DNA from: a virus
Taxonomy: Duplodnaviria; Heunggongvirae; Uroviricota; Caudoviricetes
Reading direction: 5' to 3' (one strand)
IMG/VR virus record: IMGVR_UViG_2939521961_000004
DNA length: 64,000 nt
Made by a program: the position numbers. This document shows, piece by piece, positions 42,001 through 48,000 of this stretch (positions within the stretch are counted from its first letter, which is position 1; the number at the start of each line of letters is the position of its first letter).

Positions 42001-45000
42001 CAGGTGTGGGGCAGATTCTGGATTCACTGGCGGAAGCCGGGATCCCCGATGAGAGTGTGGTGGGGATAAGCCAGGGCTGGAAGCTGGGCGGGGCCATCAA
42101 AACCACCGAGCGCAAACTGGCTGAAGGGGTGCTGATTCACGGTGATCAGCCCCTGATGGCCTGGTGTGTCGGTAATGCCCGGGTGGAGCCTAAAGGTAAC
42201 GCCATTCTTATCACCAAACAGGCCAGCGGACGGGGAAAAATTGACCCGCTGATGGCGCTCTTCAATGCGGTGTCCCTGATGTCCCTGAATCCGGAACCGA
42301 AAAAGAAAGCGTATGAGGTTTTTTTCATATAACCCTGCTCACCCTGTAACCATCATGAACCGCTGCGGCGGTTTTTTTATTTTCAGGAGGCTGATGTGAC
42401 TCTTAAACGGGCCTGTTCCCTGCTGACGGTGAAATCCTTCAGTGAGGATGAACGGGTGATCACCGGGATTGCGTCAACGCCTTCTCCGGATCGGGATGGT
42501 GACATCCTGGAGCCGGAGGGGGCGGAGTTTGGCAGTACGATCCCGTTTCTCTGGCAGCATGACCATTCCCGCCCTGTAGGCCAGTGTACGGTGCGTCGGG
42601 TCAGGGAAGGGCTGGAAATCACGGCAATGCTGGTGAAGCCGGAGCCGGGGATGCCCTCCCAGATGGCAGCCCGGCTGGATGAGGCCTGGGCTGCCATTAA
42701 GACCGGGCTGGTCAGGGGGCTTTCTGTGGGCTTCCGGCCCCATGAATACACTTATCTGGACGGAGGCGGACTGCATTTTCTGCGCTGGGAGCTGATGGAG
42801 GTGTCTGCCGTCACCGTGCCCGCGAATGCGGAATGCACCATCCGGACCATTAAATATTTCGACCGCCCGTTTTCTGCCGCGTCCGGCAACCGGAAACCGG
42901 TGGTGAAAATCGCATCTTCTGCCGGCGCTGCGGCACAGTCAATAACCTCTTTTCATAAGGAAAAGTCAGCAATGAATACTGGTGAACAGATTAAAAGTTT
43001 TGAAAACAAGCGTGCGGCGCTGGCAGCCTCCCTTGAGGAGATCATGAACAAAGCCGCAGAGGAAGGCCGCACACTGGATGTGGAAGAGGAAGAGCACTAC
43101 GACAACACCGCAGCGGAAATCCGTCAGGTGGATGCGCACCTGAAGCGTCTGCGTGAACTGGAAACCAGTAAGGCCGCCACGGCACAGCCGGTGAAACAGG
43201 CCGGTAACGGGAATGTGGCCACGGTGGCTTCAGCGCCGGTGATCCGTGTTGAGCAGAAACTGGAGAAGGGGATTGGTTTCGCCCGCTTTGCCAAATCACT
43301 GGCCGCGGCTAAAGGTGTCCGCTCTGAAGCCCTGGAAGTGGCCCGTCGTCAGTATCCGGATGACAGCCGTCTGCATCATGTCCTGAAATCGGCGGTGGGG
43401 GCAGGGACCACCACGGACCCGCAGTGGGCAGGCAGCCTGTCTGAATACCAGGAATATGCGCAGGACTTTATTGATTACCTGCGTCCGCAGACCATTATCG
43501 GGCGATTTGGTCAGGGCGGGATCCCTGCACTTCGTCAGGTGCCGTTCAATATCCGCGTGCATGCCCAGGTGTCCGGTGGTGCTGCCGGCTGGGTGGGTGA
43601 GGGTAAGGCCAGACCCCTGACGAAGTTTGATTTTGAATCCATCACCTTCAGTCATGCGAAAGTGTCGGCCATTGCGGTACTGACGGAAGAATTGATCCGT
43701 TTTTCCAGTCCGGCTGCTGATGCACTGGTCCGTAATGCGCTGGCGGAAGCGGTGGTGGCGCGTCTGGACACAGACTTTGTGGACCCGAAAAAAGCGGCGG
43801 TGGCGGATGTCTCCCCGGCGTCCATCACCCATGATGTGAAGGGCACGGCATCAACCGGTAACCCGGATGCGGATGCCGAGGCCGCGTTTGGCCAGTTTGT
43901 GACGGCAAATCTGCAGCCCACCGGTGCGGTCTGGCTGATGTCCAGCACCAATGCCCTGGCGCTGTCCATGCGTAAAAATGCGCTGGGGCAGAAGGAATAT
44001 CCGGACATGACCTTGCTGGGCGGGACCTTCCAGGGGCTGCCGGTGATTGTCTCCCAGTATGTGGGTGACCAGCTGGTACTGGTGAATGCACCGGATATTT
44101 ATCTGGCGGATGACGGCGGTGTGGCGGTGGATATGTCCCGTGAAGCGTCACTGGAGATGCAGTCTGAACCGACCAGCGACAGCAGCACACCGTCACCGGT
44201 GGAACTGGTCTCCATGTTTCAGACCGGCAGCGTGGCCATCCGTGCGGAGCGCTGGATCAACTGGCGTCGTCGCCGTACCGCGGCAGTGGCGGTGATCACC
44301 GGTGTGAACTACGGAACTGCGTCCGGTGGCTGAGTCTGATGAGGAGGGCGGGAGGCGCGAGCTTCCCGCAGTAACAGATGGCAAAAATCCAGTATCTGCA
44401 GGGCACGCATGATGCCCGGGCCGGGGATATCCGTGATGTGGCACAGCCGTGTGCGGAGGTGCTGGTTCGCCTGGGGAAGGCGGAGTACATCACAGCGCGA
44501 CGTCCGGCAGGTCAGAAAAAGAAACGTGATGCGGAGCATGGCGAATGTGGAACCTTTTGCGGCGAACCCGAAAAAACCAGAAATCAGGACGTGACGTAAG
44601 AGAAGTGGGCTGGCGGTCCCTGTTTCAGGCGGTGGCTGAGCCTTTTGCCGGTGCCTGGCAGCAGGGTGTGAAAGCCGATCCGGAAACCGTTTTGTCCTTT
44701 CACGCGGTGTTTTCATGCATTTCGCTGATATCCCAGGATATCGCCAAAATGCGGCTTCGCCTGATGCAGACTGATGTACAGGGAATACGCCGGGAAAAGC
44801 GGCAGGGAGATACTGCCCGTCTCTGTCGTCGTCCTAATGCGCAGCAGAATCGCATCCAGTTTTTTGAACTGTGGCTGAATTCCAAATTGCGTCACGGCAA
44901 TACGGTGGTGCTGAAAATCCGCAACCCCCGGGGGCAGATCAAAGAACTGCGTATTCTGGACTGGAACCGGGTTGAACCTCTGGTGGCGGATGACGGCGAC

Positions 45001-48000
45001 GTGTTCTACCGCATCACGCCGGACCGGAACTGTGGGATCACAGAGTCGGTGACGGTGCCTGCCCGGGAGGTGATCCACGACCGTTTTAACTGTTTTTTTC
45101 ATCCGCTTGTGGGGCTGCCGCCGGTGTATGCCGCAGGACTGGCCGCCATGCAGGGGCATCATATTCAGGCAAATTCGACGTATTTTTTCAGAAATGGCGG
45201 GCGACCATCAGGCGTGATTGAGGTCCCCGGCAGTATTACGGAAGAAAACGCGAAAAAACTGAAGGGGAACTGGGACAGCGGATATACGGGCGAAAATGCC
45301 GGGAAGACGGCCATACTGAGCAACGGGGCAAAATACAGCCCCACGACGTTTTCACCGGTGGATGCGCAGACGGTGGAACAACTGAAAATGACGGCTGAAA
45401 TTGTCTGTTCGGTGTTCCGTGTCCCGGCCTACAAGATTGGCGTTGGCCACCCGCCTTCCAGTGACAACGTGGAGGCGCTGGAGCAGCAGTATTATTCCCA
45501 GTGTCTGCAGACGCTGATTGAGTCCATTGAGCTGTTACTGGATGAGGCGCTGGAAACGGGGGAAAACGAGAGCACGGAGTTTGACGTCACCACGCTGCTG
45601 AGAATGGACAGCGAACGGCGCATGAAAACACTGGGTGAATCGGTGAAAAATACGCTTCTCACGCCCAATGAGGCCCGTAAACGTGAGAACCTGCCGCCCC
45701 TTGCCGGCGGTGATGCACTGTATCTTCAGCAGCAGAACTACAGTCTGGAGGCGCTGTCCCGTCGTGATGCCCGTGAGGACCCGTTCGCGTCGGCCGGGAA
45801 AACAGTTTCAGCACAACTGCCTGACGGCGCATCTGACGGTAATAAGGCAATCAGTGAAACAGAGCATGATGCAGTGAAAGCGATGTTCAGGGGGATACTG
45901 AGAAAATGACGGAACGGGAACTGTCCATTATTCGTGCACTGGGCGAAGAATTCTCCACGGTGCTGGCGGATTTACAGCGCACATTTGAGGGGAAGATGGC
46001 CGCGCAGGCACAAGCGTTTGAAGAGAAACTGGCTTCCCTGTCGGCGGTATTACAGAAGCATGTGACGGTGGATGAGGTACATCCGGTTCTGCAGGCGATG
46101 GTGGATGACGCTGTGGGGACCATTCCGGTACCGCGTGATGGTCGTGATTATGATCCGGATGTACTGCAGCAGGCGGTGAATGATGCGGTTGCGAATATTC
46201 CGGTACCGGCGGACGGCAAAAGTATCACCCCCGATGATGTGCGTCCGATGCTTGAGCAGATGGTGAAAGAGGCTGTAAGCCATATCCCTGCTCCGCGTGA
46301 CGGTCGTGATTATGATCCGGAAGTACTGAAGCAGGCGGTGAATGATGCGGTTGCGAATATTCCGGTACCGGCGGACGGCAAAAGTATCACCCCCGATGAT
46401 GTGCGTCCGATGCTTGAGCAGATGGTGAAAGAGGCTGTAAGCCATATCCCTGCTCCGCGTGACGGTCGTGATTATGATCCGGAAGTACTGAAGCAGGCGG
46501 TGAATGATGCGGTTGCGAATATTCCGGTACCGGCGGACGGCAAAAGTATCACCCCCGATGATGTGCGTCCGATGCTTGAGCAGATGGTGAAAGAGGCCGT
46601 AAGCCATATCCCTGCTCCGCGTGATGGTCGTGATTACGATCCGGAAGTACTGAAGCAGGCGGTTCTGGAGGCGGTGAATGCCCTTCCGGCTCCGCAGGAC
46701 GGGCGTGATGCCACGGCACTGGAAGTGCTCCCCGCTATTGACGATCAAAAATCCTTTCCCCGGGGCACGTATGCCACACACCTGGGTGGACTCTGGCGGG
46801 CGTATGAAAAAACGCACGGGATGCGGGGATGGGAATGCCTGGTTGACGGGGTGGCGGATATCGACGTCAGCATGACGGATGAGCGGTTGTTCTCTGTGGT
46901 GATCCGGCAGAGCAGTGGCCAGTGTACGGAAAAAACATTTTCCCTGCCGGTGATGCTCTACCGCGGTGTGTTCAGAGCCGGTGAAACCTACCACCCCGGC
47001 GATACGGTGACGTGGGGGGGCTCGCTGTGGCACTGCAACAGTATGACCGGTGATAAACCCGGAGAAGCTCATTCATCAGGCTGGACCCTGGCTGCAAAAC
47101 GTGGACGGGATGCAGGAGGCGGAAAATGACGGCATTACTGACACTGGAAGAGATCAAGGCACATCTGCGTGTTGACCATGACGCGGATGATGACATGCTG
47201 ATGGACAAGGTTCGTCAGGCTACCGCCGTGCTGCTGGCCTACATTCAGGGCAGCCGGGATAAAGTGATTCGTGAGGACGGTGAGCTGATCCCGGGCGAGG
47301 CATTAACCCGGATGAAGGGGGCTGCCATGCGACTGACCGGGATGCTGTACCGGAATCCGGATCTTGCTGAGCGGGAAGACCTCGTGCAGGGGGAACTGCC
47401 GTTTTCTGTGTCCGTGCTGATTTACGATTTGCGTTGTCCGACGGTGTTATGAGGAGGGAGGAATGGCAATATCTGCAGGTCGTCTGACACAGATGATAAG
47501 TGTTCTGAACCCGGTGTTAACCCGTAATGCTGCCGGAGAAATGACGGAAGAATGGGTGTCATGCGGGAAAATTCATGCGGATATCCGTGGCAGGAGCAGC
47601 CGGGAGCGGATGCAGTCCGGTGCGGAAATGGCGCAGGCGGAAATCCGCATCTGGGTGCGCGGTCAGTCCGGTCGGGAAATCACGGCAGCGTCACGACTTC
47701 ATGTGCTGAGTGGTCCCTGGCGTGACCGGATCCTGAACGTTGTCGGGCTGCCCGTGCCGGATGCGACCGGCGGACGTCTGGAAATTCTCTGTCGGCTGGG
47801 AGGTGAAAAATGATCGAAACCCTGCTGGATTTTTCGGGGCTGGAGGACATCAGCCGCGATTTGCAGCTTCTGAGTGGTGCAGAAAATAACCGGGTGCTGC
47901 GTGAGGCAACCCGTGCGGGTGCGAATGTGCTGAAAGAAGAAGTGGTGTCACGGGCACCGGTACGCAGGGGAAAACTGCGCCGCAATGTGGTGGTCCTTTC

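What the first reader, a model, noticed from the sequence alone, without database searches (positions are those of the whole stretch)
42396..45909. Protease-capsid fusion gene placed before the portal gene
The 645-aa ORF has a prohead protease N-terminus and a capsid-like C-terminus in one frame, and it precedes rather than follows the portal gene, which is the reverse of the usual HK97 order. Internal attenuator-like terminators at 42368, 48625 and 50073 subdivide the morphogenesis operon.
Basis: partly seen in the sequence, partly recalled or inferred. Interest (0 to 1): 0.45.

Follow-up and report, generated by a model that had tools for sequence, protein, structure and literature searches.

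The report
Known phage protease–capsid fusion gene
This is the ordinary, already-annotated head-assembly module of a common E. coli lambdoid prophage, in which the capsid-maturation protease and the major capsid protein are one gene lying ahead of the portal gene; the one possibly new detail is a conserved internal start site that probably also makes the capsid protein on its own.

Summary
ORF 42396-44333 (645 aa) is intact. It carries an HK97-type prohead protease domain (S78; catalytic His55/Ser110 conserved) and an HK97-family major capsid domain. It lies between the large terminase and the portal gene (44545-45909), the reverse of the order in HK97. None of this is new. The same gene is in about 1,250 of 5,426 complete E. 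coli genomes and in many Stx-converting phages. It has full-length homologues (31-77% identity) with the same gene order in gamma-, beta- and alpha-proteobacterial prophages. It is annotated "prohead protease fused capsid protein" in Pseudomonas phage PAJU2. The three terminator-like hairpins are real. The first is conserved across lineages, and HK97 has putative terminators annotated at analogous sites.

Going beyond the finding: an in-frame ATG at codon 193 (42972) is conserved in about 90% of 132 distant fusion clusters, and most exceptions have Val or Leu there. It follows a Shine-Dalgarno-like motif in a low-GC, weakly folded stretch, and it is the start codon of the capsid gene in relatives where the two genes are separate. 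I infer a nested gene: the full-length fusion delivers the protease, and internal initiation makes the scaffold-plus-capsid protein. This is untested, and the signal is weak in this window alone.

The parts
42357..42374 (+). Terminator-like hairpin T1 (AACCGC-tgcg-GCGGTT plus T-run to about 42383), lying between the terminase large subunit stop and the fusion gene's ribosome-binding site.
   Evidence: Found by the scan and folds at -10.7 kcal/mol. A GC-rich hairpin plus T-run sits at the same place in most related loci, with at least 8 different stem sequences.
42385..42398 (+). Shine-Dalgarno AGGAGG (42385-42390) and the GTG start codon (42396-42398) of the full-length fusion.
   Evidence: Read directly from the sequence. 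Anti-SD duplex energy is -10.3 kcal/mol. Relatives have ATG plus GGAGG at the same position.
42396..44333 (+). 645-aa prohead protease / scaffold-like region / major capsid protein fusion ORF.
   Evidence: It is 48-50% identical over its full length to PAJU2 gp03, annotated 'prohead protease fused capsid protein'.
42537..42848 (+). Core of the S78 (HK97-type) prohead serine protease domain, aa 48-151. Catalytic candidates are His55 (42558-42560) and Ser110 (42723-42725).
   Evidence: Pfam PF04586. BLASTP to HK97 gp4 gives 29% identity and E 2e-8, with His55 aligned to gp4 His65 and Ser110 to gp4 Ser114. Both residues are invariant in 105 fusions of 36-53% identity. AF2 pLDDT is about 70-80 for aa 1-140.
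42864..42971 (+). Variable, probably disordered linker (about aa 157-192) between the protease domain and the capsid protein.
   Evidence: Hypervariable and rich in indels in the alignments. pLDDT is 24-31.
42957..42974 (+). Candidate internal translation initiation region: SD-like AAGGA (42957-42961) and in-frame ATG (42972-42974, Met193).
   Evidence: The ATG is invariant in 35 enterobacterial homologues. Split relatives start their capsid ORF at this Met.
42978..43178 (+). Helical, delta-domain-like (scaffold-like) N-terminal region of the capsid protein, aa 195-261.
   Evidence: Two long helices with pLDDT about 80. The family profile aligns positions 195-262 with residues 4-71 of a solved 385-aa major head protein, 9gyi_B (E 2.6e-9). 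TIGR01554 model position 3 aligns with aa 204.
43551..44300 (+). HK97-family major capsid domain, aa 386-635.
   Evidence: PF05065 at 55.5 bits. The family profile hits solved phage capsid proteins: 9d9w E 1.8e-18, 8gta 2.2e-11, and 5tjt, 6b0x, 8ho3.
44378..44599 (+). Conserved 73-aa ORF of unknown function between the capsid and portal genes. It overlaps the portal ORF by 55 nt.
   Evidence: PHROG 829, unknown function. Homologues at the same position in enterobacterial loci. No Pfam or NCBIfam hit.
44545..45909 (+). HK97-type portal protein gene (454 aa).
   Evidence: PF04860 267 bits and TIGR01537 365 bits.
45906..47129 (+). 407-aa ORF coupled to the portal gene by an ATGA overlap. It contains 3.3 copies of a 162-bp (54-aa) repeat at 46131-46663. 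Function unknown.
   Evidence: The ATGA overlap and the -1 frame offset are conserved in more than 20 loci, including PAJU2.
48626..48640 (+). Terminator-like hairpin T2 plus T-run, just before the major tail protein's ribosome-binding site (ATG at 48663).
   Evidence: HK97 has an annotated putative terminator at the analogous position.
50070..50091 (+). Terminator-like hairpin T3 plus T-run (core AACCGC-tgag-GCGGTT), between the tail assembly gene and the tape measure gene.
   Evidence: -10.8 kcal/mol. The consensus scan did not flag it. A sub-threshold isrK-like Rfam match overlaps it.

Best explanation
The region is the head-assembly core of a lambdoid (Stx-phage-type, long-tailed) E. coli prophage. 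One gene encodes, in order: an HK97-type (S78) serine protease; a disordered linker; a helical scaffold-like 'delta' region; and an HK97-family capsid domain. Shown: domain content, an intact and conserved ORF, conserved catalytic His/Ser, and conserved gene order ahead of the portal. Inferred from the HK97 pathway: the subunits assemble on the portal into a procapsid with the N-terminal parts inside; the tethered protease then removes itself, the linker and the delta region, leaving the mature capsid protein. Further inference from comparative data: the gene is a nested pair. Ribosomes start at the first codon (GTG 42396), giving the roughly 70-kDa fusion. They also start at the conserved internal ATG 42972 (Met193), giving a 453-aa delta-plus-capsid protein without protease. 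The fusion would then act as the vehicle that puts a subset of protease copies inside the shell. This would be analogous to lambda C/Nu3 and herpesvirus UL26/UL26.5, except that the shared C-terminal part is the capsid protein itself. The hairpins are intrinsic-terminator-like elements at gene boundaries. Antiterminated late transcription presumably reads through them. The confidence of 0.6 is for the whole statement including the internal start; the identity of the gene as a functional protease-capsid fusion of a known family is about 0.97.
For: Identity and integrity: both domains above curated cutoffs; His55/Ser110 aligned to HK97 gp4 His65/Ser114 and invariant in 105 diverse fusions; profile hits to solved capsid proteins; about 1,250 E. 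coli genomes; 1,174 50%-identity clusters at E<=1e-30, nearly all of the top 150 full-length fusions. Gene order: (the same order in more than 30 loci down to 31% identity). Viability: phage phi330, with a 95.5% identical gene, forms plaques at 1e9 PFU/mL. Autoproteolysis was proposed for the PAJU2 homologue. Internal start: (1) a Met lies within 7 residues upstream of the conserved E-Q-I motif in 119 of 132 fusion clusters, against a Met frequency of 2.4%, and 8 of the 13 exceptions have Val or Leu there, as expected for GTG/TTG starts. (2) The preceding linker is hypervariable, yet an SD-like motif (AAGGA, GAGGAGGG, AAGGAGGG, AAAGGGG and similar) precedes the ATG; Fisher p is 1.5e-8 over 12 lineages. 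It is the best anti-SD match in the upstream 120 nt, with a 4-8 nt gap, in 11 of 16 loci. (3) The site is low-GC (0.36 against 0.60 in the window) and weakly folded in all 12 lineages, Fisher p 4e-7. (4) In relatives with separate genes (Moraxella Mcat2, Sphingopyxis, Brucella, Snodgrassella and a Prevotella MAG, plus free-standing capsid clusters P0193, P0233, P0258, P0260, P0267), the capsid ORF starts at this Met with SD strengths in the same range. (5) HK97-type capsid models and a solved capsid protein align their N-termini to about aa 193-204.
Against: No protein-level data were available for either product. In this window the internal SD is only AAGGA with a 10-nt gap; its anti-SD energy of -6.2 is matched or beaten by about 13% of codon positions in the same ORF. 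The upstream start has a strong SD in all lineages, so the full-length protein is probably made in quantity, and translating ribosomes could suppress internal initiation. The lineages used in the combined tests share ancestry, so the p-values overstate independence. A procapsid built only from full-length fusions is not excluded on volume grounds (my estimate, not computed with a tool). The published proposal for PAJU2 invokes only autocatalytic cleavage. The AF2 model of the capsid half was poor, so the fold assignment rests on sequence profiles.
Confidence: 0.6

Rival explanations
1. Pure polyprotein. Every capsid subunit is made as the 645-aa fusion, all copies carry a protease, and autoproteolysis alone releases the mature capsid protein. 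On this view the conserved Met, the SD-like motif and the AT-rich stretch are leftovers of an ancestral gene boundary or reflect linker composition.
For: The upstream start has a strong SD in all lineages. The PAJU2 literature proposes autocatalytic cleavage only. The window's own internal SD is unremarkable (p about 0.13). Hydrophilic linkers tend to use purine-rich codons.
Against: The fused state spans 132 or more clusters below 50% identity, yet the Met is kept in 90% of them and replaced mainly by Val or Leu. The SD-like motif keeps canonical spacing while the encoded residues change (K-G, E-G, K-E, E-V). The linkers are not generally purine-rich (0.44-0.63). Split relatives use the same ATG.
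Confidence: 0.3
2. Artefact or pseudogene. Two separate genes, protease and capsid, were joined by a frameshift, a sequencing error or a decaying prophage.
For: Some relatives do have two separate ORFs (Mcat2, Snodgrassella, Brucella).
Against: The identical 1938-bp ORF is in many independently sequenced complete genomes. One 90%-identity cluster holds 9,916 member sequences of 645 aa. Full-length fusions dominate down to 36% identity. The plaque-forming phage phi330 carries it.
Confidence: 0.01
3. The N-terminal domain is a degenerate, inactive protease relic that now serves only as extra internal scaffold. Maturation would then be done by another protease or not at all.
For: TIGR01543 proheadase_HK97 scores below its curated cutoff (44.1 against 59). 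No solved protease was hit by sequence.
Against: Pfam S78 is above its cutoff. His55 and Ser110 align with the HK97 gp4 catalytic pair and are invariant across 105 diverse fusions. No other protease-like gene was detected among the head genes.
Confidence: 0.04

Closest known systems
Pseudomonas phage PAJU2 gp03 ('prohead protease fused capsid protein'; called a 'capsid polyprotein', UniProt P85500, in PMC8306868, citing Uchiyama et al. 2009)
   Same: Full-length homologue at 48-50% identity over aa 1-642. Same S78 + linker + capsid architecture. Same neighbourhood: TerS, TerL, fusion, small ORFs, portal, then an ATGA-coupled downstream ORF, adaptor and head closure protein. Same in-frame Met at the junction, preceded by CAGGAGGG.
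   Different: Different host and different rest of genome (a D3-like Detrevirus). PAJU2 has a much stronger internal SD and two small ORFs, rather than one, before the portal.
Phage HK97 gp4 (protease) and gp5 (capsid protein with delta domain)
   Same: Same protease family with the catalytic His/Ser aligned. Same Pfam and TIGRFAM capsid family, with an N-terminal scaffold-like region. Same portal, adaptor, head-closure and gp10 families. Terminator-like hairpins annotated before the protease-capsid genes and before the major tail gene.
   Different: In HK97 the protease and capsid are two adjacent genes that follow the portal. The protease is targeted non-covalently (from the literature: Duda et al. 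2013). There is no detectable pairwise similarity between the capsid halves.
Nested in-frame head genes: lambda C/Nu3 and herpesvirus UL26/UL26.5 (from established knowledge)
   Same: The proposed logic is the same: a long product carries the protease, and an abundant shorter product starts at an internal in-frame site and shares the C-terminus, so the protease is co-assembled into the procapsid.
   Different: In those systems the shared part is a separate scaffold protein, whereas here it would be the capsid protein itself. The protease families also differ (ClpP-like or S49-type, and assemblin). Here the two products are inferred, not demonstrated.
'Major capsid and protease fusion' genes of actinobacteriophages (Arthrobacter clusters AM, AU, AN; Microbacterium EE) and of Pseudomonas MD8-like phages
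   Same: The same idea of protease, scaffold and capsid functions in one gene, and already a recognised annotation category. NCBIfam also has a 'prohead protease/major capsid protein fusion protein' model.
   Different: Little or no sequence relationship. MD8 uses a lambda-C-like protease and a Mu-like capsid protein.

Membership tests
HK97-type prohead serine protease (MEROPS S78 / Pfam PF04586) | Match to the family model above the curated threshold | tested here: met
   PF04586 scores 32.7 bits against a cutoff of 21, over aa 48-151. TIGR01543 scores 44.1, below its cutoff of 59. PHROG 80 'head maturation protease' gives E 1e-40.
HK97-type prohead serine protease (MEROPS S78 / Pfam PF04586) | Catalytic His and Ser present at the positions of HK97 gp4 His65 and Ser114 (the residue roles are taken from the literature, not tested here) | tested here: met
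   BLASTP alignment with gp4 places His55 on gp4 His65 and Ser110 on gp4 Ser114. Both are invariant in 105 fusions of 36-53% identity.
HK97-type prohead serine protease (MEROPS S78 / Pfam PF04586) | Proteolytic activity on the capsid precursor | not testable with these tools
   Needs virion N-terminal sequencing or mass spectrometry, or active-site mutants.
HK97-family major capsid protein (PF05065 / TIGR01554) | Match to the family models above the curated thresholds | tested here: met
   PF05065 scores 55.5 bits (cutoff 24.2) and TIGR01554 scores 80.9 bits (cutoff 27.5).
HK97-family major capsid protein (PF05065 / TIGR01554) | Relationship to capsid proteins of solved HK97-fold structure | tested here: met
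   The family profile A3 hits 9d9w (1.8e-18), 8gta (2.2e-11), 9gyi (2.6e-9), 5tjt, 8ho3 and 6b0x, all described as major capsid or major head proteins.
HK97-family major capsid protein (PF05065 / TIGR01554) | HK97 fold seen in a 3D model | tested here: inconclusive
   The AF2 model from a shallow alignment has mean pLDDT 44.6, with the capsid half below 50. The Foldseek matches were meaningless.
PAJU2-type prohead protease-capsid fusion ('capsid polyprotein', PHROG 617) | Full-length collinear homology to family members | tested here: met
   PHROG 617 covers aa 1-639 (E 6e-259). PAJU2 gp03 is 48-50% identical over aa 1-642. More than 130 of the top 150 cluster representatives are collinear fusions.
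PAJU2-type prohead protease-capsid fusion ('capsid polyprotein', PHROG 617) | Characteristic neighbourhood: TerL upstream, portal downstream | tested here: met
   The same order is seen in more than 30 loci from three proteobacterial classes.
PAJU2-type prohead protease-capsid fusion ('capsid polyprotein', PHROG 617) | Autoproteolytic release of the mature capsid protein | not testable with these tools
   Proposed for PAJU2 according to PMC8306868. Virion mass-spectrometry data for phi330 exist (PRIDE PXD061229), but no coverage map for this protein is published.
Nested in-frame gene pair (lambda C/Nu3-like logic) | Conserved in-frame internal start codon at a domain boundary | tested here: met
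   Met is present in 119 of 132 clusters, and 8 of the 13 exceptions have Val or Leu. It is invariant in 35 enterobacterial sequences. It is the same codon that starts the capsid ORF in split relatives.
Nested in-frame gene pair (lambda C/Nu3-like logic) | Ribosome-binding site and accessible mRNA at the internal start | tested here: met
   Met family-wide: SD Fisher p 1.5e-8, canonical spacing in 11 of 16 loci, weak folding Fisher p 4e-7. In this window alone the SD is weak (AAGGA, 10-nt gap, p about 0.13).
Nested in-frame gene pair (lambda C/Nu3-like logic) | Two protein products actually made | not testable with these tools
   Requires a western blot, N-terminal proteomics or start-site ribosome profiling.
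Intrinsic (Rho-independent) terminator | GC-rich hairpin directly followed by a T-run, in an intergenic position | tested here: met
   T1, T2 and T3 fold at -10.7, -8.5 and -10.8 kcal/mol. T1 is conserved in position, with varied stems, across lineages.
Intrinsic (Rho-independent) terminator | Termination or attenuation of transcription in vivo | not testable with these tools
   Needs 3'-end mapping (Term-seq) with and without the Q antiterminator.

The most novel reading that the evidence does not exclude
Across this large family, the protease-capsid 'fusion' is really a nested two-product gene. A conserved internal ribosome-binding site and ATG at the protease/capsid boundary yield free scaffold-plus-capsid protein. 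The full-length fusion is a minority or co-assembling subunit that carries the protease into the procapsid. In effect this is a lambda C/Nu3 or herpesvirus UL26/UL26.5 strategy in which the shared module is the capsid protein itself. I found no description of this in the papers I could search.
Probability: 0.6. Interest if true: 0.4.

Novelty: already known. Interest (0 to 1): 0.25.

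Why it matters
As stated, the finding adds nothing new. This head module is among the commonest in enterobacterial prophages, including Stx-converting phages, and the fusion is already annotated. Its practical value is for annotation. The gene is variously labelled 'major capsid protein', 'prohead protease' or 'hypothetical protein'. The neighbouring portal gene and orf407 are wrongly flagged as one frameshifted pseudogene. If the internal start is confirmed, it would explain how protease dosage inside the procapsid is set in fused systems. It would also explain why fused and split forms interconvert so easily, since the capsid gene keeps its own start signals. That in turn would give a simple rule for annotating thousands of such genes as two-product genes.

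Tried and rejected
(1) Single-sequence search of the PDB gave only a weak capsid hit (E 0.003) and spurious glucanase matches. A profile search was needed.

(2) AlphaFold2 on an alignment of 35 close homologues gave a poor model (pLDDT 44.6). The Foldseek search with it was meaningless (no hit at E<=0.001). Deeper alignments could not be used because representative-library proteins are not accepted for prediction.

(3) RNAalifold on the T1 hairpins predicted no pairs, because MAFFT misregistered the short stems. I relied on per-sequence folds instead.

(4) Pairwise BLASTP of the capsid half against HK97 gp5 found nothing significant. Membership of that family rests on profile models.

(5) Liu & Mushegian 2004 and Duda et al. 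2013 were not held in the library, so what they say about fusions could not be checked.

(6) The phi330 paper's supplement has peptide maps only for the short-tailed phages.

(7) The Rfam scan found only sub-threshold matches (isrK-like at 27.1 bits against 50, and a snoRNA match that is surely chance).

(8) I considered programmed -1 frameshifting at the portal/orf407 junction (A AAA TGA in the window) and rejected it. The slippery run is not conserved in relatives (ACC AAA TGA, TTC AAT GAT), whereas the ATGA overlap is.

Full report
**1. What is there**

The window around the finding holds a typical late (morphogenesis) operon on the + strand:
- small terminase (40111-40674)
- large terminase (40671-42332)
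- the 645-aa ORF (42396-44333)
- a 73-aa ORF (44378-44599)
- portal (44545-45909)
- a 407-aa ORF (45906-47129)
- head-tail adaptor, head-closure protein, gp10-like protein and tail terminator
- major tail protein, two tail assembly proteins and the tape measure protein.

The 645-aa ORF starts at GTG 42396, five bases after AGGAGG.
- Pfam puts Peptidase_S78 at aa 48-151 and Phage_capsid at aa 386-635, both above the gathering scores.
- TIGR01554 (major_cap_HK97) covers aa 204-584.
- PHROG 617 matches end to end.
- The next large ORF is an HK97-type portal.
- In phage HK97 the annotated order is terminase, portal, protease, capsid.

**2. It is not an artefact**

- The 1938 bases are 100% identical to several complete E. 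coli chromosomes. They occur in 1,252 of 5,426 complete E. coli genomes, often several times per genome.
- The 7.2-kb head region is 98-99.8% identical to many Stx1a-, Stx2a- and Stx2c-converting phages.
- In strain PV0838 the surrounding prophage has the usual lambdoid layout, with a Q-type antiterminator, tRNAs, lysis genes and an HNH endonuclease upstream of the terminase.
- Thousands of protein clusters of 644-648 aa carry both Pfam domains.
- An exhaustive search of 50%-identity representatives found 1,174 clusters at E<=1e-30. Nearly all of the best 150 are collinear full-length fusions.
- Phage vB_EcoS_phi330 carries a 95.5% identical gene and grows to 1e9 PFU/mL.

**3. Both halves hold up**

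- The N-terminal part aligns with HK97 gp4 (29% identity, E 2e-8). His55 falls on gp4 His65 and Ser110 on gp4 Ser114. That these are the catalytic residues is literature knowledge (Duda et al. 2013), not tested here.
- Both residues are invariant in an alignment of 105 fusions that are only 36-53% identical to the query.
- T5-like phage prohead proteases are also hit.
- The C-terminal half has no pairwise similarity to HK97 gp5. However, a profile of the family hits solved phage capsid proteins (9d9w E 1.8e-18, 8gta, 9gyi, 5tjt, 6b0x, 8ho3).
- An AlphaFold2 model from a shallow alignment was poor overall (pLDDT 44.6). It was still informative about boundaries: protease domain aa 1-140 (pLDDT about 70-80), a disordered linker at aa 141-193 (below 31), then two long helices at aa 195-261 (about 80).
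- The structure search with that model was useless.

**4. The order is a family trait, and the fusion is already described**

I fetched 35 related loci from one genome per species and mapped the window's head proteins onto them.
- The order TerS, TerL, protease, capsid, (small ORF), portal, orf407, adaptor recurs in Enterobacterales, Pseudomonas, Burkholderiales, Neisseriales (Snodgrassella) and several alphaproteobacteria, down to 31% identity.
- Pseudomonas phage PAJU2 has the same layout, and its gp03 is annotated 'prohead protease fused capsid protein'.
- A later paper cites the PAJU2 study (Uchiyama et al. [quoted passage not shown] It refers to the UniProt entry as a 'capsid polyprotein'.
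- Source names in the protein database include 'putative major head protein/prohead protease' and 'HK97 family phage major capsid protein/HK97 family phage prohead protease'.
- NCBIfam has a model named 'prohead protease/major capsid protein fusion protein'.
- Unrelated fusions of the same kind are a recognised category in actinobacteriophages and in MD8-like Pseudomonas phages.

The finding as written is therefore already known.

**5. What the comparison adds: a conserved internal start**

In the protein alignment the linker before residue 193 is hypervariable, but a Met sits at the boundary in every sequence. In Moraxella phage Mcat2, where protease and capsid are separate overlapping ORFs, the capsid ORF starts at that Met. 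The lines of evidence are as follows.

- **Start codon.** All 27 fused loci have an in-frame ATG at the boundary. Most of the loci with separate ORFs (Mcat2, Sphingopyxis, Brucella, Snodgrassella and a Prevotella MAG in which the protease lies 1.3 kb upstream) start the capsid ORF at the equivalent ATG.
- **Distant clusters.** Among 132 full-length representatives of distinct 50%-identity clusters, 119 have a Met within seven residues upstream of the conserved E-Q-I motif, 96 of them at -4 or -5. Overall Met frequency is 2.4%. Of the 13 exceptions, 7 have Val and 1 has Leu at the equivalent position, as expected if the codon is a start codon that can be GTG or TTG.
- **Free-standing capsid proteins.** Those in the same search begin at query positions 192-193.
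- **Shine-Dalgarno-like motif.** Upstream of the ATG there is an SD-like motif whose nucleotides are kept while the encoded residues change (K-G, E-G, K-E, E-V): AAGGA in the window, AAAGGAAA in other enterics, GAGGAGGG, CAGGAGGG and AAGGAGGG in Pseudomonas and Haematobacter, and AAAGGGG in two others.
- **SD strength.** I ranked the anti-SD pairing energy at the boundary against all codon positions of each ORF. The combined Fisher p is 1.5e-8 over 12 lineages. The energies (-5.3 to -12.3 kcal/mol) lie in the same range as at the real capsid start codons of split relatives (-5.8 to -10.6).
- **SD spacing.** In 11 of 16 loci the best anti-SD 8-mer in the 120 nt upstream lies 4-8 nt from the ATG. 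The linkers are not generally purine-rich.
- **mRNA accessibility.** The -25..+20 segment is low in GC (0.36 against 0.60 in the window) and weakly folded in all 12 lineages (Fisher p 4e-7).

Together these are the marks of a maintained translation initiation region. I therefore think the gene makes two products: the 645-aa fusion, and a 453-aa protein made of the scaffold-like region plus the capsid domain.

Three cautions apply.
- In this window alone the SD is weak (AAGGA, 10-nt gap, p about 0.13).
- The lineages are related, so the combined p-values are optimistic.
- No protein data exist.

**6. Likely mechanism**

By analogy with HK97 (established knowledge), capsid subunits co-assemble on the portal with their N-terminal delta regions pointing inward. 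Here the protease is tethered covalently to some or all subunits, which removes the need for a separate targeting signal. After assembly it would cut away itself, the linker and the delta region. If internal initiation operates, the relative use of the two starts sets the number of protease copies per shell. This is the logic of lambda C/Nu3 and herpesvirus UL26/UL26.5, but with the capsid protein as the shared module.

The retained start signals would also explain why split and fused forms interconvert, and why a non-homologous ClpP-type protease is found fused at the same junction in one relative (P0262).

The rival view, that all subunits are full-length polyproteins, is not excluded.

**7. 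The hairpins**

All three named sites are GC-rich hairpins followed by T-runs, in short intergenic gaps just upstream of the next gene's Shine-Dalgarno sequence.
- The scan found two of them and gave no overall excess of such sites in the region.
- T1 is clearly maintained. A hairpin plus T-run lies between the terminase and the fusion gene in most related loci, with at least eight different stem sequences.
- The HK97 record annotates putative terminators before its protease-capsid genes and before its major tail gene.
- Whether they attenuate, insulate the late genes from unmodified polymerase, or stabilise processed mRNA cannot be decided here.

**8. Verdict**

Novelty is nil for the fusion and the gene order. 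The conserved internal initiation site is a modest, testable addition. Overall interest is 0.25.

Noticed in passing
window 44545-47129 (junction at 45906-45909): RefSeq (PGAP) annotates the portal gene plus the following 407-aa ORF as one 'frameshifted' portal pseudogene in strain PV0838, and PHROG 2271 is an 859-position 'portal' profile spanning both. However, the ATGA stop/start overlap with a -1 frame offset is conserved in more than 20 loci from different genera, including PAJU2. Two translationally coupled genes are therefore the native state, and the pseudogene call looks spurious.
   Followed up: partly
window 46131-46663 (inside ORF 45906-47129): There are 3.3 tandem copies of a 162-bp (54-aa) unit at 98% identity. 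Several Stx phages match the region with exactly 162 bp less (7039 against 7201 bp), so the copy number varies between phages. The C-terminal part has a weak CBM_5_12-like hit (E 0.0024). The function of this portal-coupled protein is unknown.
   Followed up: partly
window 50026-50093: A sub-threshold Rfam match to the prophage-associated sRNA isrK (27.1 bits against a gathering score of 50, E 0.015) ends at hairpin T3, between the tail assembly gene and the tape measure gene. It may reflect only the terminator.
   Followed up: no
window 42357-42374 and 50073-50088: Hairpins T1 and T3 have the same stem (AACCGC...GCGGTT) and differ only in the loop (tgcg against tgag). This could be a repeated element or convergence.
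   Followed up: no
window 44378-44599: A conserved 73-aa ORF (PHROG 829, unknown function) always sits between the capsid gene and the portal gene, and here it overlaps the annotated portal start by 55 nt. Its position just before the portal recalls lambda gpW, but no family match was found. The true portal start may lie further downstream.
   Followed up: no
proteins P0123, P0132, P0262 (from; not in the window): Relatives of the same capsid protein occur with other N-terminal modules. One has a ClpP-family protease fused at exactly the same junction (P0262). Two have an AAA+ ATPase domain ahead of the S78 protease and capsid domains in proteins of about 1,090 aa (P0123, P0132). The latter may be real triple fusions or gene-calling errors.
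   Followed up: partly
window 39455-39820: An HNH endonuclease gene lies just upstream of the small terminase, as is typical of HK97-like cos-packaging modules (annotated in the identical E. coli PV0838 region).
   Followed up: no
window 42396: The E. coli (Stx-phage-type) lineage starts the full-length fusion with GTG. All other lineages examined use ATG behind a similar GGAGG. A weaker start codon could shift the ratio between the full-length and internal products.
   Followed up: no
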